This document shows positions 4,326 through 42,545 of a stretch of DNA of 64,000 nucleotides, one piece after another (the first letter of the stretch is position 1; each line of letters starts with the position of its first letter). The position numbers and the translations under genes were made by a program. Source of the DNA: an uncultured Candidatus Binatia bacterium. Lineage in GTDB: Bacteria > Desulfobacterota > Binatia > UBA9968 > JAJDTQ01. Under the pieces are notes generated by a model. That model did not search any database. It was not told the origin of the DNA and worked only from the letters and a program-made list of their open reading frames with translations. The DNA is taken from positions 1,609,214 through 1,673,213 of the forward strand of contig OZ251459.1 in assembly GCA_965242525.1 (NCBI GenBank), read 5' to 3'.

Positions 4326-5228
4326 GTGTCCCTGTTCTACAACAAACTTTTCCGGGAGGAAGCCGTCGCCCGTCGGGCGAGCGGGGACCCACTGGACGAA
4401 CGGCTCCAGGTCACGGCCCGGCACGAGTGGATGGTGCTGGCGGGGCTCGGCTTGGCGCTCCTGCTGCTGCTCGTCTGGGGGGTCTTCGGAAGCGTGGAGC
4501 GCAGCCTTTCGGTCAAGGCCGTGCTGGTCCAGCCGGGCGAGCGCTACGCGGTGCTGTCACCCGTGTCCGGCAACGTGGTCGAACTCCTGGCCGAGGTCGG
4601 AGACACCCTCCAGGCCGGACAGGGCATCGCCCGGGTCCGTCTCCCGGAAGCCGAGCGCCAAGTCCGGATCACCCGGAGGATCCTGGACGCCGTCCGGGAC
4701 GGGACGGGAGGCGCCGCAACCGCCGAGATCCGGGCGGCGCTGCTCACCGCGGCGCGGGCCGAGGTCGAAGCCGTCGAGTCCCGCGCCGCGGAATCCATCG
4801 TGGCCCGGCGCGAGGGCCGGCTCGTGGCGCATCGCCTGGTCCCGGGCCAGCCGGTGCGCACCGGCGAGACCGTGGCCCAGGTCCGGGGCAGTTCCGATGA
4901 GCCGTGGCAGGCGCTGGCCTTCGTGTCGGCGCGGGACGCCGGGAAACTCGAAGCGGGCATGGAGGCGGAGGTGCGGGTGGCGCTGCCCGGGCGGCCGGGG
5001 ACCAGCCGGTTGGAAGCCCGGGTCCTGGAGGTGTCGCCCCGGACCGTGGCCGCCCCGCAATGGCTTGCGGACCTGGGCCTTGCCGCGCCCGCGCCGGCGC
5101 ACCTGCTGCGGCTGGTCCTGAGCGACCGGCCGCGCCTGCCGCTCGCCGACGGCGCCGGCGGACACGTGCGGATCGTGCTGGGGAACCGGTCCCCTGCGGC
5201 CCTGCTGCTGGCCAACACCGACCTCTGA
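4326..5228 (+). CDS. HlyD-family secretion adaptor of an NHLM/NHLP-type bacteriocin export system
   Basis: GTG start followed by [51 protein letters not shown] (N-terminal TM) and then a coiled-coil/beta-barrel-like region. The gene immediately precedes the C39-ABC gene. Confidence 0.75.
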
Positions 5229-5268
5229 TGCCTGCCGCGGTCTCGAACACCTGGGAGGAAACGCCGGC

Positions 5269-7482: not shown

Positions 7483-10418
7483 ACGGGAAGCACCGAACCG
7501 GGGACGTGCGGAAGCCGGCGCCGGGCAGCCTCCGGGAAATCGCCCTCGCGCACGGCGAGCCGTTCATCGGAGGCGGCAACCGCCCCATCCGCCTGTCCGA
7601 CCCCGAGACCCTGTGGTACGTGGTCAAGGGCACCATGGACGTATTCACCGCCCAACATTCCGCGGACAGGGAGACGTCGGACTTCAAGCATCTCCTGCGC
7701 GCGGGCGCCGGCCGGTGGATCTTCAGCATCGCCAACGAGGAGGACGCCTCCACGTCCCTGTACATCGCCAAGGGGCTCCCCGACACCGAGCTCCGCTGCG
7801 TCCCCCGGACCGCCCTGACCGGACCCGGGACGGCCGGACTCCTGGCCGAACAGGCGGACGCCTGGATTGCCGACCTCGCCGCGGCCATCGCCCGGGAAGT
7901 GGAGCCGCGCCCGCGCCCCCAGCGCTTCCTGACCCCGGGCGAGGACGTCGAGGCCGCGGCCGAGAACGTGCTGTCCACCCGCCGCGGCGTGGTCTGGGTC
8001 TCGACCCAGGTGGGGAACGCGGCTTTCCTCGACACCGGCGAGCCTACCGGCAGCGGTCCGGGCTTCATCCCCGTCTCCGCGGGTAGCTGGATACGGCTGT
8101 TCCACCCCTGCCGACTGGCCGTCACCACGTCCGCGGCCCTCGAAGCCGACGGCCTGCTGTTCTCCGCCCTGGCCGAGTTCCATCGACTGGCGCTGTCCGC
8201 GGAGGAAATCAACCGGCGCCTGGTGCTCGTGGACATGGCCAACTTGCAGCGGGCCCACGTCCAGCGCCGGAGCCGGAGCGAAGAGCGCGCCCGGGACAGC
8301 CTGCTCGGCGTGCTGAACGAGCGGCGGTCCCCCGCGGGGGACCGCGGGACCGGCCTGTTGCGCGCCCTGGAGCAGGTGGGCCGCCACGAAGGCATCCGGT
8401 TCCGCACTCCGCCCCGCCGGCGGGGAACGGACGAGGACGCCCCCGACCTGACGGAGATCCAGCGCGTGTCGGGGGTCCGCGCGCGCAGGGTCAAGCTCGC
8501 CGTCGAAGACCATTGGTGGCGCGGCGACAGCGGCGCGATGCTGGCGTTCCGGCGCGAGTCCGGGAACCCGGTGGCGCTGGTCCCGGGCGTGTGGGGCCGT
8601 TACCAGATGATCGACCCGGAGACGGGCCGTTCGGAGCGGGTGGACGAGGGCCTGGCCCGGGACCTCGCTTCCGAGGCGTACTTCTTCTACCGCCCGCTGC
8701 CGCAGGAGGAAACGGTCCGTCCCGGCGCCCTGTTCCGCTTCGCGTTCCGCGGGCTCGGAAAAGACCTGGCGCGCTTCATCCTGGCGGGACTGCTGGTGGG
8801 CCTCATGATGCTGACGCCGCCCATCCTGCTCGGCGCCCTGGTGGACCGCGTGATCCCCAGCGGGTCCGGCTGGCAAGTCCTGGAGCTGTCCCTGTCCCTG
8901 GTCCTGCTGGCGGTCCTCACCGCGCTCCTGCATCTCCTCCAGGGAACCGCCCTGATGCGGCTGGAGGCCGCAGCCGCGGCCCGGGTGGGCGCGGCGCTCT
9001 GGGACCGGCTGCTCGGCCTGCCGCAGCGGTTCTTTCGTCGCTTCTCCTCCGGCGACCTGACCATGCGCACCATGGCCTTCCAGGGACTGCGCGACCAGGT
9101 CTCGGGGGTGGTCGGCAACGCCCTCCTGTCGGTGGTCTTCCTCCTGCCCACCTTCCTGCTGCTGTTCGTCTATGACACCGGGATCGGCTGGCTCGGCCTG
9201 GGGCTGGGACTGTCCTCCCTGGGGGTGACCGCGGCCATCGGCGTCCTCCAGCTACCCCACCAACGGCGCCTGCTCGCCATCTCGAGACGGCTTGCGGGCA
9301 GGCTGGTGCAACTGCTGAACGGCGTCAGCAAGCTGCGGTCCACCGGCTCCGAAGGCATCGGGTTCGCCTTGTGGGCGCAGGACTACCGGGAACAGAAGCA
9401 GACCGAGATGCGGCTCGGCAGGCTGAACGAGCACCTGATCGCCTTCCTGGCGGCCGCGCCCCTGCTGGCCGCGGCCGCGGTGTTCGCCGCGGCCATGCAC
9501 GACGGCCGCGCGGTCCTTCCGGTCGGGGACTTCCTCACCATCTACGCAGCGTTCATGGTGTTCTATTCCGCGGTGGCCAGGCTCGGCGCTTCGTTCTCCG
9601 CGGTGGCCGCGGTCATGCCCGCGTACGAGCAGGTGACCCCGATCCTGGAGTCGAAGCCGGAGACGGGCGCCAAGGGCGAGCCGCCGCCGGAGCTCAGCGG
9701 CGAACTCCACGTGGACCACGTGAACTTCCGCTACACGGAGGACGGTCCCCTGGTCCTGCAGGACGTCTCCATCCACGCACGGGCCGGCGAGTTCGTGGCC
9801 ATCGTGGGGGAATCCGGCGCGGGCAAGAGCACCCTGTTCCGGCTCGCCCTCGGACTCGAGGCGCCGCTGTCGGGGGCCGTTTACTACGACGGGCGCGACC
9901 TCGCGCGACTCAACAAGCGGGCGGTGCGCAGCAGGATCAGCATGGTGGTGCAGGACGTGTCGCTGCACCCCGGCACCGTGCTGGAGAACATCGTCGGAGT
10001 GTCCGGGAACCTCACCGAGGACGACGCCTGGCGGGCCGCCCGCCAGGCCAGCGTGGACGAAGACATCGCCGCCATGCCCATGCAGATGCACACCCCGACC
10101 GGAGACAAGTCCGCGACTTTCTCGGGCGGGCAGATCCAGCGGATCATGCTGGCCGCGGCGCTGGTCCGGGACCCGAGCGTCCTGTTCCTCGACGAGGCCA
10201 CCAACTGGCTCGACAACAAGAGCCAGGCGCAAGTGATGCACAACGTGGCCGAGCTTGCCGTCACCCGGTTCGTGACGGCCCACCGCCTGTCCACCATCCG
10301 CATGGCCAACCGCATCTACGTGCTGCAGGACGGCCGGGTGGTCCAGACCGGAACCTTCGACGAGCTGTTCGAGATCGACGGCCCCTTCCGCAACCTGGTG
10401 CGGCGGCAAATGGCCTGA
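7479..10418 (+). CDS. Second large ABC transporter of the NHLM tripartite system, with an N-terminal non-transporter domain
   Basis: The protein is 979 aa, and the start overlaps the upstream stop (ATGA). The N-terminal ~400 aa are not TMD-like, followed by a TMD (LLVGLMMLTPPILLGALV) and an NBD with GESGAGKST, FSGGQIQRIML and LFLDEAT. Confidence 0.85.
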   Translation: MNGKHRTGDVRKPAPGSLREIALAHGEPFIGGGNRPIRLSDPETLWYVVKGTMDVFTAQHSADRETSDFKHLLRAGAGRWIFSIANEEDASTSLYIAKGLPDTELRCVPRTALTGPGTAGLLAEQADAWIADLAAAIAREVEPRPRPQRFLTPGEDVEAAAENVLSTRRGVVWVSTQVGNAAFLDTGEPTGSGPGFIPVSAGSWIRLFHPCRLAVTTSAALEADGLLFSALAEFHRLALSAEEINRRLVLVDMANLQRAHVQRRSRSEERARDSLLGVLNERRSPAGDRGTGLLRALEQVGRHEGIRFRTPPRRRGTDEDAPDLTEIQRVSGVRARRVKLAVEDHWWRGDSGAMLAFRRESGNPVALVPGVWGRYQMIDPETGRSERVDEGLARDLASEAYFFYRPLPQEETVRPGALFRFAFRGLGKDLARFILAGLLVGLMMLTPPILLGALVDRVIPSGSGWQVLELSLSLVLLAVLTALLHLLQGTALMRLEAAAAARVGAALWDRLLGLPQRFFRRFSSGDLTMRTMAFQGLRDQVSGVVGNALLSVVFLLPTFLLLFVYDTGIGWLGLGLGLSSLGVTAAIGVLQLPHQRRLLAISRRLAGRLVQLLNGVSKLRSTGSEGIGFALWAQDYREQKQTEMRLGRLNEHLIAFLAAAPLLAAAAVFAAAMHDGRAVLPVGDFLTIYAAFMVFYSAVARLGASFSAVAAVMPAYEQVTPILESKPETGAKGEPPPELSGELHVDHVNFRYTEDGPLVLQDVSIHARAGEFVAIVGESGAGKSTLFRLALGLEAPLSGAVYYDGRDLARLNKRAVRSRISMVVQDVSLHPGTVLENIVGVSGNLTEDDAWRAARQASVDEDIAAMPMQMHTPTGDKSATFSGGQIQRIMLAAALVRDPSVLFLDEATNWLDNKSQAQVMHNVAELAVTRFVTAHRLSTIRMANRIYVLQDGRVVQTGTFDELFEIDGPFRNLVRRQMA

Positions 10419-10499: not shown

Positions 10500-10787
10500 T
10501 TACCAATCGTCGACGATGCTCCGCCCGCTCGGGTTTGGCTGCCATCCGTACACGCCGCCAGCGACCGCCTGCAGGTCGCCGTCGCCCAGCCGGCTGTCGG
10601 GGGGCAGGACCAGATGCGCAGCCTCGCCGCTCTCTTCGTGGACCTCGATGGACAGGGACGCCGGAATGGTGACGCCCAATTCCTGCTCCACCGCCCCCTT
10701 CGGGTCGCTGAGAAGCCGGGCGCGGAACTCCGCGTCCTCCATCGCCTTGCCCACGATCTTCGCCTGCATTTCCTTCGCCGTTTCCAT
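10500..10787 (-). CDS. NHLP (nitrile hydratase leader peptide) family RiPP precursor A
   Basis: Full sequence METAKEMQAKIVGKAMEDAEFRARLLSDPKGAVEQELGVTIPASLSIEVHEESGEAAHLVLPPDSRLGDGDLQAVAGG|VYGWQPNPSGRSIVDDW. It carries a classic NHLP leader, a double-Gly C39 cleavage site, a 17-aa core and a GGAGG SD. Confidence 0.9.
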   Translation of the reverse strand: METAKEMQAKIVGKAMEDAEFRARLLSDPKGAVEQELGVTIPASLSIEVHEESGEAAHLVLPPDSRLGDGDLQAVAGGVYGWQPNPSGRSIVDDW

Positions 10788-10823
10788 GGCTCGTCCCTCC
10801 TCGACAGACTGATAACTACGTGC

Positions 10824-10853
10824 AATTTACGATACCGCTTCATCCAATGTCAA
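10824..10853 (-). promoter_or_regulatory. Sigma70-like promoter for precursor A (TTGACA-N18-TAAATT on minus strand)
   Basis: The reverse complement reads TTGACATTGGATGAAGCGGTATCGTAAATT; a homologous block lies upstream of precursor D. Confidence 0.45.
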
Positions 10854-12785: not shown

Positions 12786-13067
12786 TCACCAGTCCAGAAC
12801 GCCCTTCCCCTGCTTGAAGTCCTCCCAGCTATATCCTCCCGCAACCGCTTGCAGGTCGCCTTCGTTCAGCTTGCTGTCGGGGGGCAGGACCAGATGCACA
12901 ACCTCGGCGCTCTGTTCGTGGACCTCGATGGACAGGGACGCCGGAATGGTGACACCCAACTCCTGCCCGATGGCTCCCTTCGGATCGCCGAGCAGCCGGG
13001 CGCGGAACTCCGCGTCCCCGGCCGCCTTGCCCACGATCTTCGCCTCCAATTCCTTTGCCGTTTCCAT
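12786..13067 (-). CDS. NHLP family RiPP precursor B
   Basis: Full sequence METAKELEAKIVGKAAGDAEFRARLLGDPKGAIGQELGVTIPASLSIEVHEQSAEVVHLVLPPDSKLNEGDLQAVAGG|YSWEDFKQGKGVLDW. A GGAAGGAG SD is present, and the ORF-track N-terminal extension was discarded. Confidence 0.85.
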   Translation of the reverse strand: METAKELEAKIVGKAAGDAEFRARLLGDPKGAIGQELGVTIPASLSIEVHEQSAEVVHLVLPPDSKLNEGDLQAVAGGYSWEDFKQGKGVLDW

Positions 13068-13119
13068 TGGTTTGCTCCTTCCTGGAGAGAGTGACGGCCA
13101 AGCGCGACCCACGGCGGGA

Positions 13120-13410
13120 TCACCAGTCAAGCAATCCTCCGCCTTTCGTGGCTTCGTGGTAGTCATCCCAGGTAAGCCCGCCGGCGACCCCCTGCAGGTC
13201 TTTTTCGCTCAGCTTGCTGTCCGGGGGCAGAACGAGATGCGCGGTCGCGGCGCTATCCTGGTGGACTTGGATGGACATGGACGCCGGAATGGGGACGCCC
13301 AACTCCTGCCCGATGGCTCCCTTCGGGTCACCGAGCAGCCGGGAGCGGAACTCCGCGTCCTCGGTCGCCCTGCCCACGATCTTCCCCCGCATTTCCTTCA
13401 CGCTTTCCAT
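13120..13410 (-). CDS. NHLP family RiPP precursor C
   Basis: Full sequence MESVKEMRGKIVGRATEDAEFRSRLLGDPKGAIGQELGVPIPASMSIQVHQDSAATAHLVLPPDSKLSEKDLQGVAGG|LTWDDYHEATKGGGLLDW, with a GGAGGAGG SD. Confidence 0.85.
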   Translation of the reverse strand: MESVKEMRGKIVGRATEDAEFRSRLLGDPKGAIGQELGVPIPASMSIQVHQDSAATAHLVLPPDSKLSEKDLQGVAGGLTWDDYHEATKGGGLLDW

Positions 13411-13510
13411 GTTTCGTTCCTCCTCCATCGAGCGATGGTTGCGCACGCCCCACGTTCACGGGCAACCTGCGATACCGGCTCACCGGATGAAGCGACACGG
13501 TCCGGCGGTA

Positions 13511-13810
13511 CTACCAGTCGGCCACGACATTCCAACTGTCATCCACACGCACACCGTTTTCGTCGTACACCGCGGCGGCGCCGGCGACGGTCTCCATCTC
13601 GCTTTCGCTCAGCCTGCCGTCGGGGGGCAGGACCAGATGCGCAGCCTCGGCGCCCTCTTCGTGGACCTCGATGGACAGGGACGCCGGAATGGTGACGCCC
13701 AATTCCTGCTCCACCGCCCCCTTCGGGTCGCTGAGCAGCCGGGCGCGGAAGTCCGCGTCCTCCATGGCCTTGTCCACGATCCTCGCCTGCATTTCCTTTG
13801 CCGTTTCCAT
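13511..13810 (-). CDS. NHLP family RiPP precursor D (VAGA cleavage-site variant)
   Basis: Full sequence METAKEMQARIVDKAMEDADFRARLLSDPKGAVEQELGVTIPASLSIEVHEEGAEAAHLVLPPDGRLSESEMETVAGA|AAVYDENGVRVDDSWNVVADW. The leader is about 85% identical to precursor A. Confidence 0.85.
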   Translation of the reverse strand: METAKEMQARIVDKAMEDADFRARLLSDPKGAVEQELGVTIPASLSIEVHEEGAEAAHLVLPPDGRLSESEMETVAGAAAVYDENGVRVDDSWNVVADW

Positions 13811-13846
13811 GCCTCGTCCCTCCTCCATAGAGTGCCGAACACGTGC

Positions 13847-13876
13847 AACCTACGATACCGGCTCGCCCAATGTAAA
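13847..13876 (-). promoter_or_regulatory. Promoter-like block upstream of precursor D (TTTACA-N18-TAGGTT), homologous to precursor A promoter
   Basis: The reverse complement reads TTTACATTGGGCGAGCCGGTATCGTAGGTT. A conserved CGAAAATCCCTGATA box lies further upstream in both copies. Confidence 0.4.
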
Positions 13877-15872: not shown

Positions 15873-16631
15873 TCAGGAGCGGAGGCGCGCCCGGCTTCCG
15901 CGCGCGCCGTACTTGGCCACGAGGGGGAACAGGTCGTAAACGATCCTGGCCTGGGGGCAGTGGCGCCGCACCTCCGGTTCGTAGGCGCTGTTCATGTCCA
16001 TGGCCACCGCCTCGATGGCCTTGCAGCCGTCGGCGCCCAGGCTCTCGAAGAACGGCCGCACGTCTTCGCGGCTGCGCCCCTTGCCCACCCACAACACGCG
16101 CCGGGTCACCGCATCGGTAATCACCGTGGCCAGCTTCTGCACGGTTTGCAGCGCGAACTCGTCCATCACCAGCCGGGTCACCCCGCGCAAGTCCATGGGC
16201 CCCACCGCGCGCTGCAGGTACCCCCTGTCCAAGTCCCTCACCGCGTCCCACCCCAGCCGGTAGTGCTGCGCCACCTGCTTGATGGTCATCACCGTGCACA
16301 AATGCGCCACGTTGTCGGCCAGCCGTTGCGTCACCCGCGCATAGCGGGCCAGCCAGCTCAACCGTTCCAGCTTGGGACCGCACCGCGGACACGCCAGCCG
16401 CCGACGCCGCAGCACCAGGGTCGTGGGCGCGTCGAAGATGGGCAGGTCGCGCACCCGACGCCGCTCGTACCCGTGGACGGCCGCCACTTCCCGGCCGCAG
16501 CCGACGCAGACCCCGGGCCGTCCCGCCACCGGGTCGAGGTCGATCTCGACCATGCCGCGGTTGCGCCTGGCCGCCACCGCTTCGTAGCCTTCCCAGTCTC
16601 CGAGAACTTCGTCGATTCCGATCTTCGCCAA
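15873..16631 (-). mobile_element. ISL3-family transposase gene, 3'-truncated (pseudogene/remnant)
   Basis: A zf-ISL3 region (CVGCG...RDLPIF...RRRRLACPRCG) is followed by a DDE_Tnp_ISL3 start (LVMDEFAL...AVAMDMNSAYEPEVRRHCPQARIVYDLF). The coding region stops after about 250 aa against an expected ~420, and no TIRs were identified. Confidence 0.75.
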
Positions 16632-16718
16632 GCCGTCTCCTCCCGTGGTCCGTGGCCGCCGTCCGACCCTTCCCGGTCTGGCCGCCCCTTGCCAGTCTAG
16701 CGGCCCTTCCGCGGCCCA

Positions 16719-24994: not shown

Positions 24995-25600
24995 CTTCCC
25001 GCCTTTCCCGCGCTTTCGCCCGAACGGACAGACGGCCGACACGGTTGAGGCGGTCCATGTAGAGGCCCCATCCTCACAGCCTCGCCGTCATTCCCCACAG
25101 ACGCCCACCCCTCGTCATTTCGGCAAGCGCTTACCCCGTCATTCCCGCGAAAGCGGGAATCCATCCGGTTTCGTCGCTCTCGTTGTACAAACCTCTCCAG
25201 GTCGGATTACCCTTCTCGATCCACTCGATCTTCCTTGCCCGCTTCCATTTCCTGACCGCCTTTCTCTCCGGGTAGCGCTTTCCATGGGTTCAGGAACCTC
25301 GTATCCAACCAACAGGTGCACAGATGGATGGATTCCCGCTTTCGCGGGAATGACGGCATGGGTTTTCACAGGAGGAACCTCTGAACAATCGAGACATCCG
25401 GGATGGATTCCTTCACCCTGACCCCTATATCCGTTCGTCCTGAGCGTAGCGAAGCGGAGTCGAAGGACGCGCTCATGCCCTCTATCCCGATTGTTCAGAG
25501 GCTCCTCCCGTCATTCCCGCGAAAGCATGTCCTCGCGGAAGCGGGGACGGGAATCCATCTGCCTTCGATCTTTGCCACGGGATCGGTTCCCGTCGCTTAC
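24995..25600. repeat. MITE cluster: a family 2 element (~25133-25358), a family 1 element (~25373-25510) and a TIR fragment
   Basis: The family-2 copy here is about 95% identical to the copy at about 29226-29460. Confidence 0.85.
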
Positions 25601-28600
25601 CGCGGCGCCGCCAGCAGCATGGCGTCCAGCAGGCGCTTCTCTTCGCTCACCGGAGGGTACAGAGCGGACAGGGCGTTGGCAAGGCGCAGGAAGTCGGGGC
25701 CGCGCTCGTGTTCCGCCTTCAGCAGGTTGCGCAGGGCCTGGCTGCGGCCCGACGCCTGCAAGAGCATGGCCGCGTGGACCCGGTCCAGCGTGGTGGCGTC
25801 CGGGGCCTGCATCTCCGCGTCGTCCGCGATGAGGACCTTCCCACCGCGGCTTCGGGTTCGCTTCTTCTTGGGGGCGGCCTCCATTTCGGGGAAAAGCACC
25901 TGCTGCACGGTGACCCTCGGGTCGCGCTCCAACCATTCCGCGGCCGTGTCTGCGCCGTCTTCGCCGAAAAGCTGTTTCCCTCGTTCCGTGGCGTTTATCA
26001 GCCGCACCACGCCCTTGTCCGTCTCGATGATCCGCCCCTCCCACTTGGACAGTTCGATGCCCAGAGGCTGGGCCAAGCGGCGCGCCACGTCGAAGACGAG
26101 ACTGTAACCCCTAGGCTTGTCGCGGGGCGCGTCGTCCGCCTCCTCGTGGTCATCGTCCTCCGCAACGTTGTCATCGTCTTCGGAGGCGTCGTCTGCGCCA
26201 GTGCTTTGCAGGGTCCAGAGGAACAGGGCGGTCAGGCGGGTGTCCTCTTCCAGCGCCCCGGCCATGCCGTTGCGCGCCTTCGCCTCCGCGGCCCCGAGGA
26301 CGTTTTCGAGGGCGGTGCGCCCGACCACTTCCCACACCCGTTCCAGGTACTCCGGCAGGCCCACCTCACGCCCCTCCGCGGTCTCCACCTGCCGGTAGCG
26401 GCTGTATATCTCCAGGGCCGGTCCGATGCAGGCAAAGACCAGGTCCGCGCCCCGGACCCCTTCGCCTTGCAACCGTTCCATCCATTCGCCCACGCGGATG
26501 GGCAGTTCGCGCAGCACGTCCGCCCAATCGCCCACCGGCGCGTCGTCGGGGCGGGGACGGCAGACCAGGTGGACGCTGGTGGCCAGGGACGCGGTGTCAC
26601 GCGCATTGAGACGAGAACCCATCTCCGTTGCCACCGGCCACGAGCCGGTGATGGTCCAGCCGCCGCTGATCATCCCGGACAGCAGCGCTTCCCAGCCCTC
26701 GGTGGTCTTGTGGGCGAAGACGACCGATCCGATACCGTCCTGGCGCAGGATGCGCCGCCCTTCGGCAAAAGCCCGAACCATTCCCGATTCGTAGGTCCTT
26801 GCCGTCTTGGTCGAACTGCTGAGCCGATGCGGTCGGTCAACGACGATCTCTTCTTCCTTCGGGGTCAGGTCATGTGAATCGATGGAGTGGCAAAGAGCCA
26901 TCATCTGCTCTGGCAAGGCGCGCTTGAGCCATACGAAGAAGAAATCGGACAAGTGTGCATAGGGGACAGCGTCGTAGTAGGGCGGGTCGGTGAACCAGAC
27001 ACTGGCGGCGGCGTCGGGCAAAGGATAAGCCTTGGCGTCTGCGGGTTGCACTTGGCCAAGGTTGGATTCGGGCCATGAGTCAATAACATTGGCAATCCAG
27101 TCCAGCGCTCCGTCATAACCACCGGTGGATTCCGAAAAGGGATTGCTCTCGCTGTAGTCCCAGACCAGGGGGAGAGCCTGTCGAGAATAGACACCCTCAT
27201 GCTTCTCGCCTGATGTATGCCATCGGCATAGCGAGCATCCTGCATTGGCGGTTCGTGTCAACGCCAGCGCCAGAGGTTGTTTCGCCATGTCGTCGATCGT
27301 TGGGAACCTCTGAACGATCGGGACAGGGGGCGTGAGCGCGTCCTTCGACTTCGCTTCGCTACGCTCAGGACGAACGGAGGACTCCACCTCGCTACGCTCA
27401 GGACGAACGGGAGGCTCCGCTTTGCTACGCTCAGGATAAACGGGGATGGGACGGTCAGGGTGCGGGAATCCATCCTGGATGTCTCGATTGTTCGGGAGTT
27501 TCGTTGATGATTTCGTCAATTCCACCAGCGCCGCCTTCTGCCGCGCGGTGAACAGATCGCCCCATGTCGTCATTCCGTAGATTGGCACGCTGATGCGTCG
27601 AATCTCGTTCAGCGAAATCGGCTCGTCCGGCACAGGACACAACCCTTGCCTCCCGCCCCGCTCCCATTCGTCGAGAATCCCCGCCAGCCGTGCCTGCGCT
27701 TCATACACCGCCGCGTAATCGGCGTCCGTCGGCATCCGATAGTGCCGGCCCGGCTCGTTCTCCTTCAGCGTCACCACCGCGGTCATGCACGCGCCGCCCA
27801 TGCGTCTGCCTGCTTCGTCGAAGATCACGTCCGCGCCGCCGCGCTGCTCGGCAAGTTGCGCCCGCACCCGCTCCGGCGGTAGTACGGCGCCGCAACACAG
27901 GCAGGTCGCCTTGGCCCGCGTCACCGTGCCCGCACGCACGTCCTTGTCGGTCTCCGGCTCGAAAATCTCCAACTCCACACGCGGCGGCTCCTTGGCCGGC
28001 TGCACGACCTTATGGAACCTCTGAACAATCGGGACAGGAGGCATGAGCGCGTCCTTCGTCTCCGCTTCGCTACGCTCAGGACGAACGGGGATAGGCGTGT
28101 CAGCGTGAGGGAATCCATCCCGGATCTCTCGATTGTTCAGATGTTTCTTGTACCGGAGCGCCTGACGGCCCCGGACCTTCTTCCGCTTGCCGCCCTCCCT
28201 CTTGAACACAGCTTTCTTCGCCAACCACAGCGACCGCAGCAGCGGGACTTCCGCCCCGCAGTTCGGGGCCTCGCAGCGCACCGTGCGCGCCCACAGGTAG
28301 GCGATGGGCGTGCTCCCGTCCAGGTCCACCGGATACAGATCGGCCAACTCCCGTTCCGCGGCCTGCCTGACCTCGCCGCCGACCTTGCGCAACTCATCGG
28401 CCAGCCCCGAACCGTGGCGCGGGATGTCTTCCAGCATCACCTTGAGGATCAGGCAGGCCACCGGGTTCAGGTCGCTGGCGAACGCCTCGCAGCCCACCCG
28501 CAGGGCTTCCAACGGAATCGAGCCGCCGCCCGCGAACGGGTCCACCACTAGGGGCGGCTCCGCGCCGTGGGCCGCCCTCACCAGCGCCCGGGCCGTTTCG

Positions 28601-29037
28601 AGCCGGACGCCGTTTGCGGCAAGGTTCCAGTTGGCGAAGTCGGCGATGAACTTGAGCAGGACCCGCCGCAAGCCATCGTCCGGCTCGATGGCCTCGATCC
28701 ACCCTCCCGGCCGTCCGTGCATCCCCAAGAGGATCTGCCGCGTCTCCTTCTTGAAGGCTTCCGGGCAATGCGGGTCACACGGGTCCGGCAGCAGCAGCGC
28801 CATCAGCATCGCCCGGGAGGAAGCCAGCGGCCGCCGCGCCCACCACAGGTGCAGCGTGGAAGGATGCCCGTGCCGGATGGACTTCTCCCGCGCCGCATGC
28901 CGCGAAACCTCGGCAATGGGGAAGTCCACCTCCGCCAGACGCCTGCACTCCCTGGGAATCACAAATCGAATCCTTGTGAGCCTCGGATCAATCCCGGCTT
29001 GAACTCCCTCTCCCTGTGGGAAAGCGCGTCCTTCCAC
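25597..29037 (-). CDS. DUF1156-domain adenine-specific DNA methyltransferase (defence-island type), carrying two in-frame MITE insertions
   Basis: N-terminal hallmark KSIRHGHPSTLHLWWARRP, with methylase motifs VVDPFAGGGSIP and WFTDPPYYDAVPYAHLSDFF. Residues encoded by the MITEs at 28013-28150 and 27298-27500 ([34 protein letters not shown]) keep the reading frame open. Confidence 0.7.
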   Translation of the reverse strand: MEGRAFPQGEGVQAGIDPRLTRIRFVIPRECRRLAEVDFPIAEVSRHAAREKSIRHGHPSTLHLWWARRPLASSRAMLMALLLPDPCDPHCPEAFKKETRQILLGMHGRPGGWIEAIEPDDGLRRVLLKFIADFANWNLAANGVRLETARALVRAAHGAEPPLVVDPFAGGGSIPLEALRVGCEAFASDLNPVACLILKVMLEDIPRHGSGLADELRKVGGEVRQAAERELADLYPVDLDGSTPIAYLWARTVRCEAPNCGAEVPLLRSLWLAKKAVFKREGGKRKKVRGRQALRYKKHLNNREIRDGFPHADTPIPVRPERSEAETKDALMPPVPIVQRFHKVVQPAKEPPRVELEIFEPETDKDVRAGTVTRAKATCLCCGAVLPPERVRAQLAEQRGGADVIFDEAGRRMGGACMTAVVTLKENEPGRHYRMPTDADYAAVYEAQARLAGILDEWERGGRQGLCPVPDEPISLNEIRRISVPIYGMTTWGDLFTARQKAALVELTKSSTKLPNNRDIQDGFPHPDRPIPVYPERSKAEPPVRPERSEVESSVRPERSEAKSKDALTPPVPIVQRFPTIDDMAKQPLALALTRTANAGCSLCRWHTSGEKHEGVYSRQALPLVWDYSESNPFSESTGGYDGALDWIANVIDSWPESNLGQVQPADAKAYPLPDAAASVWFTDPPYYDAVPYAHLSDFFFVWLKRALPEQMMALCHSIDSHDLTPKEEEIVVDRPHRLSSSTKTARTYESGMVRAFAEGRRILRQDGIGSVVFAHKTTEGWEALLSGMISGGWTITGSWPVATEMGSRLNARDTASLATSVHLVCRPRPDDAPVGDWADVLRELPIRVGEWMERLQGEGVRGADLVFACIGPALEIYSRYRQVETAEGREVGLPEYLERVWEVVGRTALENVLGAAEAKARNGMAGALEEDTRLTALFLWTLQSTGADDASEDDDNVAEDDDHEEADDAPRDKPRGYSLVFDVARRLAQPLGIELSKWEGRIIETDKGVVRLINATERGKQLFGEDGADTAAEWLERDPRVTVQQVLFPEMEAAPKKKRTRSRGGKVLIADDAEMQAPDATTLDRVHAAMLLQASGRSQALRNLLKAEHERGPDFLRLANALSALYPPVSEEKRLLDAMLLAAPR
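27298..27500. repeat. MITE family 1 copy with triplicated central GCTACGCTCAGGACGAACGG, inserted in-frame in the DUF1156 methylase gene
   Basis: The TIRs GGGAACCTCTGAACGATCG and CTCGATTGTTCGGGAGTTTC flank the element. Confidence 0.85.
28013..28150. repeat. MITE family 1 copy inserted in-frame in the DUF1156 methylase gene
   Basis: The TIRs GGAACCTCTGAACAATCGGGACA and CTCGATTGTTCAGATGTTTC flank the element. Confidence 0.85.
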
Positions 29038-29039
29038 TT

Positions 29040-29660
29040 CGCTTCGCTACGCTCAGGACGAACGGGGATAAGGGGTCGGGGTGAGGGAATCCATCCTGGA
29101 TGTCTCGGTTGTTCAGAGGTTCCATAAATCGGCTCTTCCGGCTTTCGTGTGGGTAAGGTAGAAGGGAAAGGGGAGCGAAAAGGATCACACGGTCATTGCT
29201 CCGCGGACGCCCACTCCCGTCATTCCCGCGCACACCCACTTCCGTCATTCCCGCGAAAGCATGTCCTCGCGGAAGCGGGGGCGGGAATCCATCCGGTTTC
29301 GTCGCTCTCGTTGTACAAACCTCTCCAGGTCGGATTACCCTTCTCGATCCACTCGATCTTCCTTGCCCTATTCCATTTCCTGACCGCCTTTCTCTCCGGG
29401 TAGCGTTTTCCGTGGGTTCAGGGACCTCGTATCCAACCAACCGGTGCACAGATGGATGGATTCCCGCTTTCGCGGGAATGACGGAGATGAGGCTTTCGCG
29501 GGAATGACGGCATGGGCTTTCACAGGAGGAACATCTGAACAATCGAGACATCCGGGATGGATTCCTTCACACTGACCCCTATATCCGTTCGTCCTGAGCG
29601 TAGCGAAGCGAAGTCGAAGGACGCGCTCATGCCTCCTGTCCCGATTTTTCAGAGGTTCCA
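29040..29660. repeat. MITE cluster (family 1 at ~29040-29140 and ~29530-29660; family 2 at ~29226-29520)
   Basis: Read directly. Confidence 0.85.
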
Positions 29661-29811: not shown

Positions 29812-31596
29812 TCAGCGCCGCTGGGTCACGGTGTCCACCAGGGCGGGGGTTCCCTGCTTGACCTGCTCGATGGCGCGGTCCAGGGCGGGCCTCAGGTGGT
29901 CGGCGTTCTCGATGGGGCCTTCGCCGTACCAGCCCATGGAGCGCGCGAGGGCGGCGAAGTCGGGGTCCGGGCCGCACAGGTCCATGCCGATGTGCGCCCG
30001 GGAGGGGTCCGTGCCGCGGTTCCGCGCCATGACGATCTGGTGGTTCCAGTCGTTGTAGTAGGCGCGGTTGTTGTACATGACCACGAGCATGGGGATGCGG
30101 TACTTGGCCGCCATCCACAGGGCGCCGGCGTCGAACATCAGGTCGCCGTCGGGTTGCAGGTCCACCACCAGCCTCCCCTGCCCCTTGTGGGCCAGGGCCA
30201 CCCCCAGGGACAGGCCGATCTGGGTGCCGGTGCCCAGCTCGCGCCCGCCGTGGCGGTAGGGCCGGTCGAAGTTCCACAACCGGCGGGCCCAGTCGTGCAG
30301 CGTGCCGGAGGTCAGCACCCAGTCCTCGTCCCGGATGGCGTCCCACACTTCCAGCGCCAGCCGCGGCACGGTCATGGGAACCGCGTCCCAGCGGTCTTCC
30401 TCGGCCTGCCGGCGCCATTGGGCGCGGACCTCGGCGTGGCGCCGGCCGGTCTCCTCCGTGCGCCGGGCGATCTTCTCGGCCAGGCCCGGAGTCCGGGCGA
30501 TGCGGGCCTTCAGCAGCCGGGTGAGCGCCGGGGCCGCGGTCACCGGGTCCGCGGTCATGCGCTGGTGCGCATAGAAGGGCCGGGCGTAGGTCATGGCCCA
30601 CTTGCTGATCTCCACGTCGGTGTAGCCGATGTCGATCCAGGCGGCGTCCTCGGGCACCATGCTCACCACCGTGCGCGTGGCGATGTCGCGCACGTGGGTG
30701 GGCTTCTCGAAGTCCGCCACGTCCAGCGTCAGCACCGCGTCCGCGTCCTTGTAGCAGCCCTCGCCGTCCATGCTCAGGTTCAGGGGGTGATCGCTCGGGA
30801 AGTTCAGGCGGGAGTCGCAGTCCCACACCCGGGCGCCCAGGGTCTCGGCCAGATCCACCACGTGGTCCCAGCCGTGGGGCGGACGCGCGGCGAAGTCCGC
30901 CACGATGACCGGGCGCTCCGCCCCGGCCAGGGTGTCCGCGGCCTGCTCCAGGGCTGCGGGGTCCGCCATCACCGGGGCCGGCACGCGCGCGGCCTCCTCC
31001 GGCGGCATGGCCACGTCCCGTTCGAGGGGAGCCTCCTGGAGGCCCGCGTCGTAGCACATGTAGATGGGTCCCTGCTTGCCGCTCATCATCACCGAATAGG
31101 CCCGGGCAAAGGCCCCGGGCACCCCGTCGATGGTGGTGGGCTGGGAGTCCCACTTGACGTAGTGGCGGATGGCCTCGCCCTGGACGCTGGCCGAATGGAT
31201 CCAGTCGATGAACGGGCGGCGCTTGGGCTCCTCCATGGGGCCGGTGGCGCCGATGATGAAGACCGGCGCCCGGTCCAGGTAGGCGTAGTAGATGCCCATG
31301 GGCGCGTGCAGCAGCCCCACCAGGTTGTGGACGATGGCGATCATGGGCTTGCCGGTGGCCCGGGCATAGCCGTGGGCCATCTGCACCGCGATCTTCTCGT
31401 GGTTGCACAGCATCATGGGCGGGTCGTCCTCGCCGTAGTTCACCAGCGAGTCGTGGAGGCCCCGGTAGCTGGCCCCGGGGTTGAGGGTGATGTGCTCGAA
31501 CCCATACCGCTTGATCATGTCCACGATGACGTCCGACTGCCACTTGCGGTCGGACTTTTTGATGTCGGGAACTTCCGTCCCTGCCGCCTTGCTCAT
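29812..31596 (-). CDS. Thiamine-pyrophosphate-dependent enzyme (acetolactate synthase / benzoylformate decarboxylase superfamily), copy 1
   Basis: Start MSKAAGTEVPDIKKSDRKWQSDVIVDMIKRYGFEHITLNPGASYRGLHD, a TPP-binding motif region GTGTQIGLSLGVALAHKGQGRLVVDLQPDGDLMF...NNRAYYN, and about 595 aa in length. Confidence 0.8.
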   Translation of the reverse strand: MSKAAGTEVPDIKKSDRKWQSDVIVDMIKRYGFEHITLNPGASYRGLHDSLVNYGEDDPPMMLCNHEKIAVQMAHGYARATGKPMIAIVHNLVGLLHAPMGIYYAYLDRAPVFIIGATGPMEEPKRRPFIDWIHSASVQGEAIRHYVKWDSQPTTIDGVPGAFARAYSVMMSGKQGPIYMCYDAGLQEAPLERDVAMPPEEAARVPAPVMADPAALEQAADTLAGAERPVIVADFAARPPHGWDHVVDLAETLGARVWDCDSRLNFPSDHPLNLSMDGEGCYKDADAVLTLDVADFEKPTHVRDIATRTVVSMVPEDAAWIDIGYTDVEISKWAMTYARPFYAHQRMTADPVTAAPALTRLLKARIARTPGLAEKIARRTEETGRRHAEVRAQWRRQAEEDRWDAVPMTVPRLALEVWDAIRDEDWVLTSGTLHDWARRLWNFDRPYRHGGRELGTGTQIGLSLGVALAHKGQGRLVVDLQPDGDLMFDAGALWMAAKYRIPMLVVMYNNRAYYNDWNHQIVMARNRGTDPSRAHIGMDLCGPDPDFAALARSMGWYGEGPIENADHLRPALDRAIEQVKQGTPALVDTVTQRR

Positions 31597-31649
31597 GTCT
31601 CGTTCCTCTCCCGGCGCCGCGGCCCGGGTCCCGGCCGCGCCAAGGGCCG

Positions 31650-33416
31650 TCAGGCGTTGATGTCCCGGCGCCAGACGATGGGGTCCACCAGCGCGGGCTT
31701 GCCGGCCTTGACCTGCTCGATGGCCCGGCGCAGCGCGGGTCCCACCTCCGCGGGGTCTTCGATGGGGCCTTCGGCGTACCAGCCCATGCCCCTGGCGATG
31801 TGCGCGAAGTCCGGCGGCGGCCCCTCCAGGTCCATGCCGATCCAGGCCCGGGACGGGTCGGTGCCGCGCTGGTGCGCCATGTGGATCTGGTGCGCCCAGT
31901 CGTTGTAGTAGGCCCGGTTGTTGTACATGACCACGAGCATGGGGATGTCGTACTTGACCGGCATCCACAGGGCCCCCAGGTCGAACATCAGGTCCCCGTC
32001 CGGCTGCAAGTCCACCACCAGCCTCCCCTGCCCCTTGTGGGCCAGAGCCACGCCGATGGACATGCCGATCTGGGTGCCGGTGCCGAGTTCCCGGCCCGGA
32101 TGGCGGTAGGGCCGGTCGAAGTTCCAGATCTTCTGCACCCAGTCCTTCAGGGTCCCCGCGGTCAGCACCCAGTCCTCGCCCTCGATCTCCCGCCACACAT
32201 CCCATGCCAGCCGGGACTCGGTCATGGGCCGCCGGTCCCTCTCCGCCTGCGCCTGCTCCTGCCACTTCTCCCACTGGCGGTCGTGCTTCTCCGCCAGGGC
32301 GCGCTTGCGCCCCTCGATGCGCTCCCGCAGCGCCGGGTCGGCTTCGACCAGCGCCCGGCACGCCCGGGTGAGCTCGGGAATGGTGATGGCGGTGTCCCCC
32401 AGGACCCGCAGGTCCCAGTTGTGGTGCTTGTTGTAGTCGGTGGCCCACTTGCTGATCTCCACGTCGGCGAAGCCCGCGTCCACCCACTTGCAGTCCGGCG
32501 CGGTCACCACCGTGATCTCCCGGGTCCGGGTGTTGAGCCGGTGGGAGCCCCGGGTCCAGTCCACCACGTCCAGGGCCATCACCAGGTCCACGCCATCGAA
32601 GGCGTCCGGGTGGAAGCTCATGCTGAGGGGGTGGCGGTTGGGGAAGCCCAGCCGCTTGCAGATGTCGAACACCGACGCTCCCACGGTCTCCGCCAGCTCC
32701 ACCGTGGGACCGAAACCCGTGGGCATGCGCCCGGCGTACTCGGTGAGCAGCAACGGGTTGTCCGCCTGCATCAGCATCTCGGCCGCCCGGGCCACCGCCG
32801 CGGGCTCCGGCGCCATGCGCGACGGCACCTTCACCGCGGAAGCCGGCGGGAGCGCCGCCTCCTCGGTGAGCGGACTCTCCTGCAACGCCGAGTCGTAGCA
32901 CAGGTAGATGGGTCCCTGGGGCTCGCTCATCATGATGGAGTAGGCCCGGGCGAAGGAGTCGGGCACGCCGTGGATGCTGCCGGGCTGGTAGTCCCACTTG
33001 GTGAAGTTGCGCACCGCGTCGCCCTGGGCGAAGGCCGTGTGGATCCAGTCGATGAAGGGGCGCCGGTACTTCTCGTCCATGGGGCCGGTGGCGCCGATGA
33101 CGAACACCGGACAGCGGTCGATGTAGGCGTAGTAGATGCCCATGGGCGCGTGCAGCAGCCCCACCACGTCGTGCACGATGGCGATCATGGGCTTGCCCGA
33201 CGCCTTGGCGTAGCCGTGGGCGATCTGCACCGCGATCTTCTCGTGGTTGCACAGGAGCATCTCCGGGTCGTTCTCGCCGTAGTTCACCAGCGAGTCGTGG
33301 AGGCCCCGGTAGCTGGCCCCCGGGTTCAGGGCCACGTAGGGGATGTCGTAGAGCCGGATGAGGTCCACGATCACGTCCGACTGCCAGCGCTGTTCCGATT
33401 TCCTGATTTCCGACAT
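31650..33416 (-). CDS. TPP-dependent enzyme, tandem paralog (copy 2, ~75% identical to copy 1)
   Basis: Sequence MSEIRKSEQRWQSDVIVDLIRLYDIPYVALNPGASYRGLHD...GTGTQIGMSIGVALAHKGQGRLVVDLQPDGDLMF. Confidence 0.8.
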   Translation of the reverse strand: MSEIRKSEQRWQSDVIVDLIRLYDIPYVALNPGASYRGLHDSLVNYGENDPEMLLCNHEKIAVQIAHGYAKASGKPMIAIVHDVVGLLHAPMGIYYAYIDRCPVFVIGATGPMDEKYRRPFIDWIHTAFAQGDAVRNFTKWDYQPGSIHGVPDSFARAYSIMMSEPQGPIYLCYDSALQESPLTEEAALPPASAVKVPSRMAPEPAAVARAAEMLMQADNPLLLTEYAGRMPTGFGPTVELAETVGASVFDICKRLGFPNRHPLSMSFHPDAFDGVDLVMALDVVDWTRGSHRLNTRTREITVVTAPDCKWVDAGFADVEISKWATDYNKHHNWDLRVLGDTAITIPELTRACRALVEADPALRERIEGRKRALAEKHDRQWEKWQEQAQAERDRRPMTESRLAWDVWREIEGEDWVLTAGTLKDWVQKIWNFDRPYRHPGRELGTGTQIGMSIGVALAHKGQGRLVVDLQPDGDLMFDLGALWMPVKYDIPMLVVMYNNRAYYNDWAHQIHMAHQRGTDPSRAWIGMDLEGPPPDFAHIARGMGWYAEGPIEDPAEVGPALRRAIEQVKAGKPALVDPIVWRRDINA

Positions 33417-42239: not shown

Positions 42240-42545
42240 CATCCTGCGGCCGGACCCAAGCGCGGACGCCCGCACCGTCATTCCCGCGAAAGCATGTCCT
42301 CGCGGAAGCGGGGGCGGGAATCCATTTTCATCGACCTTCTCAATCCTCTTATACGGGGCGCCACGGGGTTTGCTCGCAAGGATGGAAACACAGGGGGTTT
42401 TCATAGGAGTCTATGGATTCCCGCTTTCGCGGGAATGACGAGAGTGGGGCCTTTGCGGGAATGACGGCGTGGGCTTTCGCGGGGATGAGGAAAGTGGGGC
42501 CTTGCGGGGATGTTGGGGCGGGCGTTCGCGGGTATTCGGATGGTG
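42240..42545. repeat. MITE family 2 copy (~42266-42445) followed by about four degenerate ~24-bp tandem units (GTGGGGCCTTTGCGGGAATGACG-like)
   Basis: Read directly. Confidence 0.75.

What the first reader, a model, noticed from the sequence alone, without database searches (positions are those of the whole stretch)
25597..29037. MITE copies inserted in-frame inside the DUF1156 methylase gene, leaving an uninterrupted 1146-codon ORF
Two family-1 MITE copies (28013-28150 and 27298-27500) lie inside the coding region between the N-terminal DUF1156 and methylase motifs and the C-terminal domain. Both are read through without stops as ...[34 protein letters not shown]..., analogous to Rickettsia palindromic elements that add peptide segments to proteins. 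Either the element is selected to be translatable, or these are recent hits on a decaying gene.
Basis: seen in the sequence. Interest (0 to 1): 0.65.

Follow-up and report, generated by a model that had tools for sequence, protein, structure and literature searches.

The report
Mobile repeats translated inside a methylase
Two copies of a small mobile DNA repeat sit inside a DNA-methylase-like gene and are read through as extra, probably floppy, protein loops while the gene stays under selection; this is a free-living-bacterium counterpart of the Rickettsia palindromic elements, not a new kind of thing.

Summary
The ORF 25597-29037 (-) is open for 1146 codons, though the real start is probably GTG 28962, giving 1121 aa. 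It holds two copies of a 134-nt repeat with 18-nt terminal inverted repeats and 4-bp target duplications. Copy 1 adds 138 nt (46 codons). Copy 2 adds 204 nt (68 codons: 134 + 4 + two 33-nt internal units). Sixteen homologues lack copy 1. One (L084) shows the exact empty site of copy 2.

A syntenic orthologue from an independent metagenome (L001) carries copy 2 at the same site. Since that split, the host gene evolved at dN/dS 0.15-0.28 and the insert at about 2.2. So the gene is not decaying and the peptide is not conserved.

Only 2 of 6 frames of the element are stop-free, which is what chance predicts, and most intergenic copies are frame-broken variants. An AlphaFold model puts both inserts in low-confidence coil between well-predicted elements.

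Best reading: compatible insertions tolerated in permissive loops of an orphan Hma/BREX-related DUF1156 adenine methylase.

An extra finding: the insert-1 loop also holds in-frame RAYT or DUF559 insertions in homologues from other phyla.

The parts
25597..28962 (-). Probable coding sequence of the DUF1156 methylase-like protein (1121 aa, GTG start). The mechanical ORF extends to 29037 (1146 codons).
   Evidence: One search gives the ORF. Searches show that homologues and the database entry P0001 start at (M/V)IPRECRRLAEV. One search shows AGGA 7 nt upstream of the GTG at 28962.
28747..28923 (-). DUF1156 N-terminal helical domain (aa 39-97 of the 1146-codon ORF).
   Evidence: PF06634, E = 4e-22.
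28519..28542 (-). Methyltransferase motif I, DPFAGGGS (AdoMet binding), invariant in the family.
   Evidence: Assigning it as motif I rests on general knowledge of N6-adenine methylases.
28014..28147 (-). MITE copy 1 (134 nt) inside the gene. It is translated as aa 273-318, [46 protein letters not shown]. It is absent from all 16 aligned homologues, including the syntenic orthologue.
   Evidence: It is 93% identical to the family consensus.
28148..28151 (-). Left target-site duplication of copy 1 (ACAA). The right copy is at 28010-28013 (ATAA, one mismatch). The uninterrupted orthologues read TAC AAG GTC here.
27303..27502 (-). MITE copy 2 (200 nt = 134 + two extra 33-nt internal tandem units) inside the gene. 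Together with its duplication it is translated as aa 488-555. It is shared with the syntenic orthologue L001, which has one unit fewer.
27503..27506 (-). Left target-site duplication of copy 2 (CAAC). The right copy is at 27299-27302 (CAAC). The empty site in L084 reads TCA ACG ATT.
27058..27297 (-). Hypervariable, mosaic module (aa 556-635) directly downstream of copy 2. It is probably part of the target-recognition insert of the methylase. The window and L001 are only 52% identical at the nucleotide level here, against 91-93% elsewhere.
   Evidence: The interpretation as a target-recognition insert comes from PMC12839542.
26971..26991 (-). Methyltransferase motif IV, TDPPYYD (catalytic DPPY).
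28978..29123 (-). Related repeat copy (subfamily with a different right half) that forms the 5' leader of the gene and ends a few bases before the ribosome-binding site. It causes the 25-codon over-extension of the ORF. An orthologous copy is present in L001.
25137..25505 (+). Composite repeat of about 370 nt downstream of the gene. It ends in a 132-nt MITE copy (25374-25505). A direct copy lies upstream at 29265-29659, 95-97% identical. Both are absent from the syntenic locus L001.
   Evidence: (D6, D12).
29265..29659 (+). Upstream copy of the same composite repeat, ending in a 132-nt MITE copy (29528-29659, flanked by AGGA/AGGA).

Best explanation
A non-autonomous transposable element (134 nt, 18-nt terminal inverted repeats, 4-bp target duplication, internal 33-nt unit of variable copy number) has inserted twice into the coding sequence. 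The host gene is an orphan homologue of the DUF1156 N6-adenine DNA methylase of Hma / DUF499-centred BREX-related defence systems.

Three things let both insertions leave the gene intact:
1. This 134-nt variant plus its 4-bp duplication adds 138 nt, and each extra internal unit adds 33 nt. All are multiples of three.
2. Both landed in the one phase of this orientation that has no stop codon.
3. Both landed in surface loops or linkers of the large insert between methylase motifs I and IV. One is a beta-hairpin loop in a four-cysteine region. The other is the linker just before the hypervariable module.

The gene is kept by purifying selection. The inserted Pro/Arg/Glu/Ser-rich peptides are carried along as unconstrained, probably disordered loops.

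Shown: insertion, boundaries, duplications, frame, shared ancestry of insert 2, and selection on the host parts. Inferred: that the protein is made and active, that the loops are exposed, and that the pattern comes from a filter (incompatible insertions are lost) rather than a property evolved by the element.
For: - Repeat family and its statistics.
- Strong hairpin of the consensus (z = -6.3).
- 4-bp duplications at both gene copies, at three intergenic copies in the window, and at the L002 gene copy.
- Insert 1 is absent from 16 of 16 homologues and insert 2 from 15 of 16.
- Exact empty site of insert 2 in L084.
- L001 is syntenic (gltB, gltD, two TPP enzymes, DUF1156, HTH, Dabb-isochorismatase, RND pump). 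It has insert 2 at the same site with shared derived substitutions.
- dN/dS window versus L001 is 0.15, 0.28 and 0.18 for the three conserved parts (dS about 0.2). For insert 2 it is about 2.2 (2 synonymous against 13 nonsynonymous differences; by codon position 4/9/2 in the insert against 50/26/122 in the host). Fisher p = 5e-4.
- 2 of 6 frames are open, against 0.32 per frame expected by chance.
- Frame-broken 132-nt and +7-nt variants dominate the intergenic copies.
- In an AlphaFold model with mean pLDDT 72 and pTM 0.61, the only long low-confidence coils in the N-terminal 770 residues other than 145-184 are 275-322 (insert 1 is 273-318) and 495-553 (insert 2 is 488-555). Both are flanked by elements with pLDDT 83-95.
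- The insert-1 loop tolerates 130-230-aa in-frame insertions in other lineages.
- HmaB profile match, E = 1e-110. Motifs I and IV are invariant.
Against: - There are no expression, proteomic or methylome data, so translation and activity are inferred.
- The dN/dS for the insert rests on 15 differences in 56 codons.
- The structure is a prediction, and low pLDDT for an insert absent from almost all alignment rows is expected whatever its real conformation.
- The gene lacks the helicase and DUF499 partners that its close homologues have, so its present role is unclear.
- Its GC3 (0.79) is lower than its neighbours' (about 0.9).
- No autonomous element with matching ends was found, so transposition is inferred from structure alone.
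Confidence: 0.8

Rival explanations
1. The peptide has been recruited for a function. For example, it could act as a flexible linker whose length, set by the number of 33-nt units, tunes the methylase. Alternatively, the element family as a whole may be shaped to be translatable.
For: - All three independent gene insertions of this repeat superfamily (the two here, and P0006/L002) use the same orientation and the same frame of the core.
- Unit number differs between the window (3) and L001 (2) without breaking the frame.
- Insert 2 has persisted over dS of about 0.2.
Against: - The insert's dN/dS is about 2.2, with most changes at codon positions 1 and 2.
- The number of open frames equals the chance expectation.
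- Most family copies in the window are frame-broken.
- Unit number also varies in intergenic copies.
- Of 167 core hits in 928 kb of metagenome loci, only one doubtful case is intragenic.
- No bona fide long protein among 1.84 billion representatives carries the peptide internally.
Confidence: 0.08
2. The gene is a dying orphan. The MITE hits are recent and the ORF is still open only by luck. Roughly one random insertion in three of the 134-nt variant would be read through.
For: - The gene lacks its usual defence partners.
- It is embedded in repeat clutter, including a window-specific 370-nt composite repeat on both sides.
- GC3 is lower than in the neighbours.
- Other family members are plainly broken by insertions: L019, and L070 downstream.
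- Insert 1 is lineage-specific and could be recent.
Against: - Insert 2 predates the split from L001.
- Since then all conserved parts show dN/dS of 0.15-0.28, and both genes keep full-length ORFs and invariant catalytic motifs.
Confidence: 0.07
3. The repeat at the edge of the hypervariable module serves as a recombination point for swapping specificity modules between alleles or paralogues.
For: - Window and L001 are 91-93% identical up to and through insert 2, then drop to 52%.
- L001 keeps the window-type left flank (TKSS) and the MITE, but continues with the module type of P0003.
- The junction is a 9-nt identity, GGTTCCCAA, between the MITE end plus duplication and the native P0003-type sequence.
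- Repeat-derived inserts also sit at the other edge of the module: P0006, and P0070 with a REP-like hairpin.
Against: - There is one junction only.
- Module boundaries fall at the same place in the many family members that have no repeat there, so the repeat is not needed for swapping.
- Nine nucleotides of identity can be chance.
Confidence: 0.04
4. Artefact: either a misassembly that placed repeats into the gene, or a native low-complexity segment from which the intergenic copies derive.
For: Repeats are a classic source of assembly error.
Against: - An independent metagenome assembly has insert 2 at the same base.
- The inserts have target duplications and inverted-repeat ends.
- They are absent from orthologues at exact empty sites.
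- The same element occurs at many unrelated intergenic sites.
Confidence: 0.01

Closest known systems
Rickettsia palindromic elements (RPE; Ogata et al. 2000, 2002, as summarised in PMC10969869)
   Same: Both are palindromic mobile repeats of about 100-150 nt inserted in frame into functional genes. Both are translated as extra peptide segments, at sites judged compatible with the protein fold.
   Different: - This is an unrelated sequence family in a GC-rich (68%) free-living-type genome rather than an AT-rich obligate intracellular one.
- In-frame gene insertion is the exception for this family, since nearly all copies are intergenic. Nearly half of the RPE copies in R. conorii are in ORFs.
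- There is no conserved peptide under selection.
Other bacterial MITEs with intragenic in-frame copies (Coxiella QMITE1/2, PMC5896051; intragenic ERIC; Anabaena MITEs, cited in PMC10969869)
   Same: They share terminal inverted repeats, target duplications, small size and many copies. Occasional in-frame fusions or C-terminal extensions also occur. A second repeat family here replaces the stop codon of homologue P0005, adding 9 aa.
   Different: Here two copies sit in one gene. An orthologue comparison dates one of them and measures selection on host and insert separately.
[quoted passage not shown]
   Same: - It has the N-terminal DUF1156 domain.
- It has an adenine-methylase core with motif I, a large insert, then motif IV.
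- The HmaB profile matches at E = 1e-110.
- Homologues 63-70% identical (L206, L207) sit in helicase - DUF1156 - DUF433 - DUF499 operons.
   Different: - The window gene is an orphan between housekeeping genes (TPP enzymes, glutamate synthase) and an HTH gene. It has no helicase or DUF499 nearby.
- It scores far below the NCBIfam equivalog cut-off (182 against 1000 bits).
REP elements with their RAYT transposase (REPtrons)
   Same: Hairpin repeats are inserted in the same loops of homologues. P0055 and L016 carry a whole Y1 transposase domain flanked by such hairpins, in frame.
   Different: The element in the window is a 134-nt inverted-repeat element with target duplications, not a 20-40-nt REP hairpin. 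No RAYT gene is in the window.

Membership tests
MITE (miniature inverted-repeat transposable element) | Terminal inverted repeats | tested here: met
   The 18-nt ends are GGAACCTCTGAACAATCG / CGATTGTTCAGAGGTTCC. The consensus folds as one long hairpin, z = -6.3.
MITE (miniature inverted-repeat transposable element) | Target-site duplication of fixed length | tested here: met
   4 bp: CAAC/CAAC, ACAA/ATAA, AAAA/AAAA, AGGA/AGGA, CTTT/CTTT, and TCAA/TCAA in L002. Three other copies show none. One of them (25.4 kb) lies at the edge of the duplicated composite repeat.
MITE (miniature inverted-repeat transposable element) | Small, non-coding for a transposase, many dispersed copies | tested here: met
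   The element is 132-200 nt. There are 21 core hits in the window against 0 expected. At least 120 metagenome contigs carry the core.
MITE (miniature inverted-repeat transposable element) | An autonomous insertion sequence with the same ends | not tested
   None is in the window. The only transposase fragment, ISL3 at 15873-16718, has no evident relation. A resemblance of the ends and the 4-bp duplication to the IS5 family is from memory only.
Rickettsia palindromic elements | Sequence membership in one of the RPE families of Rickettsia | not tested
   No RPE sequence was compared. The base composition and host are very different, so the relation claimed is functional analogy only.
Rickettsia palindromic elements | In-frame insertion in functional genes at fold-compatible sites | tested here: met
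Rickettsia palindromic elements | A high proportion of copies inside ORFs, with a conserved encoded peptide | tested here: not met
   Nearly all copies are intergenic. The peptide is not conserved, with dN/dS of about 2.2.
Hma / DUF499-centred BREX-related system methylase (HmaB) | DUF1156 N-terminal domain plus an N6-adenine methylase core with motifs I and IV | tested here: met
   There is weak fold support from EcoP15I Mod and CcrM (E = 0.02-0.03).
Hma / DUF499-centred BREX-related system methylase (HmaB) | Operon with an SF2 helicase and a DUF499 ATPase | tested here: not met
   No such genes lie within the surveyed neighbourhood (15.9-39.8 kb, i.e. about 10 kb on either side) in the window or in syntenic L001. 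They are present next to homologues in L206 and L207.
NCBIfam NF042963 anti-phage-associated DUF1156 protein (equivalog) | Score at or above the curated cut-off | tested here: not met
   182 bits against a cut-off of 1000.
Intein | In-frame insert with splicing residues (Cys/Ser/Thr at its first residue, His-Asn at its end followed by Cys/Ser/Thr) | tested here: not met
   The inserts begin with K-H-L-N-N and K-L-P-N-N and end with Q-R-F-H-K and Q-R-F-P-T. They are too short, and they are copies of an intergenic repeat.

The most novel reading that the evidence does not exclude
The loops around the specificity region of this widespread DUF1156 methylase family may be a recurrent landing place for unrelated selfish elements that end up translated within the host protein:
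- A MITE in the window.
- REP hairpins in P0055 and P0070.
- Whole RAYT transposase domains in P0055 and L016.
- A DUF559 endonuclease domain in L070.

This could be more than passive tolerance. The elements might target this DNA, the embedded nuclease or transposase domains might add activities to a defence methylase, or the repeats might help exchange specificity modules.
Probability: 0.15. Interest if true: 0.75.

Novelty: new member of a known kind. Interest (0 to 1): 0.45.

Why it matters
This is a clean, datable example outside Rickettsia of selfish repeats living inside a working gene. One insert is shared by two lineages. That allows selection on the host protein (strong) and on the inserted peptide (none detectable) to be measured separately. 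The result supports a simple filter model over the idea that such elements evolve to be translatable.

It also marks two, probably four, permissive sites in a large defence-type methylase with no solved structure. That is useful for domain mapping or engineering.

The in-frame transposase and endonuclease domains found at the same loop in other phyla are unusual and were not found described in the searchable literature.

Tried and rejected
- A peptide search of the 5.8-billion-protein index with the 44-aa consensus returned only 3 candidates. The query was too short for the word index, so this was uninformative.
- A profile search of 1.84 billion representatives found only short spurious ORFs. 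The two long hits were one false positive (P0255, TPR repeats) and one N-terminal over-extension (P0295). Clustering at 50% hides insert-bearing members, so this cannot exclude other cases.
The nearest named locus is a Methylomirabilota MAG at 68%.
- Exact look-ups of P0001 and of the HTH protein found no record. Cluster members carried no names.
- The first AlphaFold run, with 74 close homologues, was unusable (pLDDT 52). It was replaced by a run with 114 more diverse sequences.
- No solved structure is related by sequence. Foldseek gave only weak methylase hits.
- Rfam found nothing in the window. The promoter and terminator scans gave nothing above background.
- Long ORFs through metagenome copies were almost all GC-rich antisense artefacts, or 5' leaders of real genes (L118, L171). 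L170/L183 (core unit in another frame of a DnaJ-like ORF) remains possible but unverified.
- Intein, native repeat and misassembly readings were rejected (see the membership tests and rivals).
- A literature search for the repeat sequence and for in-frame RAYT insertions found nothing relevant.


Full report
**What is in the sequence**

The minus-strand ORF 25597-29037 is open for 1146 codons and carries Pfam DUF1156 at residues 39-97. A repeat family pervades the window. Its 20-nt core GTTCGTCCTGAGCGTAGCGA occurs 21 times at up to three mismatches, against none in 100 shuffles.

Full copies align to a 134-nt consensus that starts GGAACCTCTGAACAATCG and ends CGATTGTTCAGAGGTTCC. The consensus folds into one long hairpin, z = -6.3. 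Two copies lie in the ORF, both in the gene's orientation.

Careful translation and comparison with orthologues gives these boundaries:
- Element 1 is at 28014-28147, flanked by ACAA/ATAA. It adds 138 nt, or 46 codons.
- Element 2 is at 27303-27502, flanked by CAAC/CAAC. It adds 204 nt, or 68 codons: 134 + 4 + two extra 33-nt internal units.

Two details need correcting:
- The first 25 codons of the ORF run over a further repeat copy that forms the 5' leader (28978-29123). Homologues begin at the GTG at 28962, which has AGGA 7 nt upstream. The protein is therefore probably 1121 aa.
- The inserts lie between methylase motif I (DPFAGGGS) and motif IV (DPPY), inside the split methylase domain.

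**These are insertions into a pre-existing gene**

The database holds thousands of homologues, typically about 1000 aa long. In an alignment of 16 of them, insert 1 is absent from all and insert 2 from 15. L084 (P0007) has the same downstream module as the window gene and shows the exact empty site, TCA ACG ATT, where the window has TCA ACG [element] CA ACG ATC. Orthologues read TAC AAG GTC at the site of insert 1.

Four-base duplications also flank three intergenic copies in the window (AAAA, AGGA, CTTT). They flank a third, independent in-frame insertion of a shorter subfamily in homologue P0006/L002 as well (TCAA). Small size, inverted ends, target duplications and high copy number meet the usual definition of a MITE. 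An autonomous partner was not found.

**Age and selection**

L001 is a 293-kb scaffold from an independent metagenome assembly. It is syntenic with the window across gltB, gltD, two TPP enzymes, the DUF1156 gene, an HTH gene, a Dabb-isochorismatase gene and an RND pump. Its DUF1156 gene lacks insert 1. It has insert 2 at the same base, with the same left flank, shared derived substitutions and one 33-nt unit fewer. Insert 2 therefore predates the split of the two lineages, and it rules out misassembly.

Since that split, the conserved parts of the gene evolved as follows (Nei-Gojobori method):

| Region | dN/dS |
|---|---|
| N-terminal part | 0.15 |
| Middle part | 0.28 |
| C-terminal part | 0.18 |
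| Insert 2 | about 2.2 |

dS is about 0.2 for the conserved parts, and differences are concentrated at third codon positions (50/26/122 by position). The 56 shared codons of insert 2 differ at 2 synonymous and 13 nonsynonymous sites, with differences by position 4/9/2. The contrast is significant (Fisher p = 5e-4), though the insert's value rests on few changes. The gene is thus maintained by selection after the insertion. The inserted peptide is not conserved as a peptide; only its frame is kept.

**Is the element built to be translated?**

Of the six frames of the consensus, two are stop-free, one in each orientation. For 44 codons at this composition, the chance of an open frame is about 0.32, so two of six is what chance gives.

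The 3n property holds only for the 134-nt variant. Three intergenic copies (25.4, 29.6 and 46 kb) are 132-nt variants, and two (24.4 and 11.3 kb) carry a 7-nt insertion. All five are broken in every forward frame. Only the two gene copies and the copy at 62 kb are fully open.

Other evidence on where copies sit:
- All other window copies are intergenic or in 5' leaders.
- In 120 metagenome contigs holding the core (167 core hits in 928 kb), long ORFs through the element were GC-rich antisense artefacts or leaders of real genes. One doubtful exception remains, L170/L183.
- A profile of the peptide searched against 1.84 billion representative proteins found 53 hits. Nearly all were under 280 aa. 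None was a credible long protein with an internal copy. The caveat is that 50% clustering hides insert-bearing members.

The picture is a filter. Roughly one random insertion in three of the 134-nt variant into a coding sequence would be read through. Of those, only the ones in permissive places in a needed gene persist.

**Where the inserts sit in the protein**

No solved structure is related by sequence. A first AlphaFold model from close homologues was unusable. A second, from 114 sequences of two subfamilies, reached mean pLDDT 72 and pTM 0.61. In that model:
- Residues 275-322 are low-confidence coil between strands 267-271 and 331-334. Insert 1 is residues 273-318. The site lies in a region bracketed by CxxxxC and CxCC motifs.
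- Residues 495-553 are coil between helices 473-488 and 556-574. Insert 2 is residues 488-555.

Low confidence is expected for segments absent from the alignment. The informative point is that the flanking elements are confidently placed and the inserts replace loops.

Independent support comes from the family itself. More distant homologues have natural indels at both sites. The segment after insert 2 (residues 556-635) is hypervariable and mosaic. According to PMC12839542, the region between strand 2 and motif IV of these methylases is the target-recognition insert.

**What the gene is**

PADLOC matches HmaB, the methylase of the Hma system, at E = 1e-110. The NCBIfam equivalog for the anti-phage DUF1156 protein is matched only weakly, at 182 against 1000 bits. 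Homologues 63-70% identical sit in full operons of SNF2 helicase, DUF1016, NTP_transf_2/HEPN, DUF1156, DUF433 and DUF499 (L206, L207). These are the DUF499-centred BREX-related systems of PMC12839542.

In the window and in L001 the gene stands alone among housekeeping genes next to an HTH gene, so it is an orphan copy. A paralogue without inserts (P0010) exists in the same genome. Foldseek gives only weak hits to adenine methylases (EcoP15I Mod, CcrM).

**Side findings that widen the picture**

The loop of insert 1 is a recurrent in-frame insertion site in other phyla:
- P0055 is an intact 1226-aa protein in a complete operon. It carries a Y1 transposase (RAYT-like) domain flanked by REP-like hairpins at this loop, plus a further REP in the acidic linker.
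- L016 (Pirellulaceae) carries another Y1 domain between perfect 26-nt inverted repeats.
- L070 (Methylomirabilota) carries a DUF559 endonuclease domain between hairpins. It is stop-free in the host frame, although that gene is frameshifted further on.

Repeat-like inserts also occur at the far edge of the variable module (P0006, P0070, P0079, P0075) and in the acidic linker.

At the junction after insert 2, L001 switches to the module type of P0003 at a 9-nt identity, GGTTCCCAA. That hints at recombination at the repeat end, but it is a single case.

**Comparison with what is known, and verdict**

In-frame MITE insertions that add peptide segments are known. The best-known case is the Rickettsia palindromic elements. 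Others are reported in Coxiella, enterobacteria and cyanobacteria (PMC10969869, PMC5896051). This case works like an RPE but is an unrelated family in a GC-rich genome. Gene insertion is the exception for this family rather than the rule.

It is a new member of a known kind, well documented, and of moderate interest. The recurrent colonisation of the same methylase loops by unrelated selfish elements is the part most worth following up.

Noticed in passing
Loci L206 (P0055, gene 4001-7681), L016 6750-7370 and L070 6820-7290: Homologues from other phyla carry whole mobile-element domains in frame at the same loop as insert 1. P0055 and L016 have a Y1/RAYT-like transposase domain, and L070 has a DUF559 endonuclease domain. 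Each is flanked by REP-like hairpins. P0055 is an intact called protein inside a complete helicase-DUF1156-DUF499 operon.
   Followed up: partly
window 27058-27297; L001 7540-7800; L083: The module after insert 2 is mosaic across the family, with at least six types shared between otherwise divergent backbones. L001 keeps the window-type flank plus the MITE and then switches to the P0003 type at a 9-nt identity, GGTTCCCAA. This may be recombination at the repeat end.
   Followed up: partly
window 25137-25505 and 29265-29659: A composite repeat of about 370 nt, 95-97% identical, flanks the gene in direct orientation and is absent from syntenic L001. It consists of a GGGAATCC hairpin repeat, about 190 nt of a third repeat (also at 3773-3833), and a 132-nt MITE. 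The upstream copy has an extra 26-nt hairpin unit.
   Followed up: partly
window 3773-3946, 25137-25160, 29456-29514, 42248-42497; L085 9037-9066: A second small repeat family, (C)GTCATTCCCGCGAAAGCGGGAATCC, forms arrays in intergenic regions. In homologue P0005 (L085) it replaces the stop codon and adds 9 residues (MDGFPLSRE).
   Followed up: partly
window 4112-4246: A perfect tandem array of the 9-nt unit CGTCAGGCC (about 15 copies) lies at the start of the ORF 4101-5228 (+). If coding, it would encode a tripeptide repeat.
   Followed up: no
window 10553-10852, 12833-13132, 13176-13475, 13576-13875: There are four copies of a 300-nt segment (74-88% identical) overlapping small minus-strand ORFs of about 110 aa. 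This looks like a small paralogous gene family in tandem.
   Followed up: no
window 29812-31560 and 31650-33400: Two adjacent paralogous thiamine-pyrophosphate enzyme genes show 64-79% DNA similarity over 300-nt stretches. Their frames merge into a second, spurious 1146-aa ORF (29812-33252) that is the same length as the one under study.
   Followed up: partly
window 15873-16718: A truncated ISL3-family transposase gene (zinc ribbon, HTH and the start of the DDE domain only) lies next to the RND efflux operon.
   Followed up: no
Loci L170 and L183: One 33-nt core unit of the repeat appears to be read in a different frame (PFVLSVAKRSRRT) inside a plausible DnaJ-like ORF of about 600 aa. This would be a second kind of in-frame capture.
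   Followed up: no
Locus L207 16726-19038: A second, shorter DUF1156 gene (770 aa) follows the DUF499 gene in the same operon as P0070. It is followed by AAA_15/AAA_21 and DUF4276 genes.
   Followed up: no
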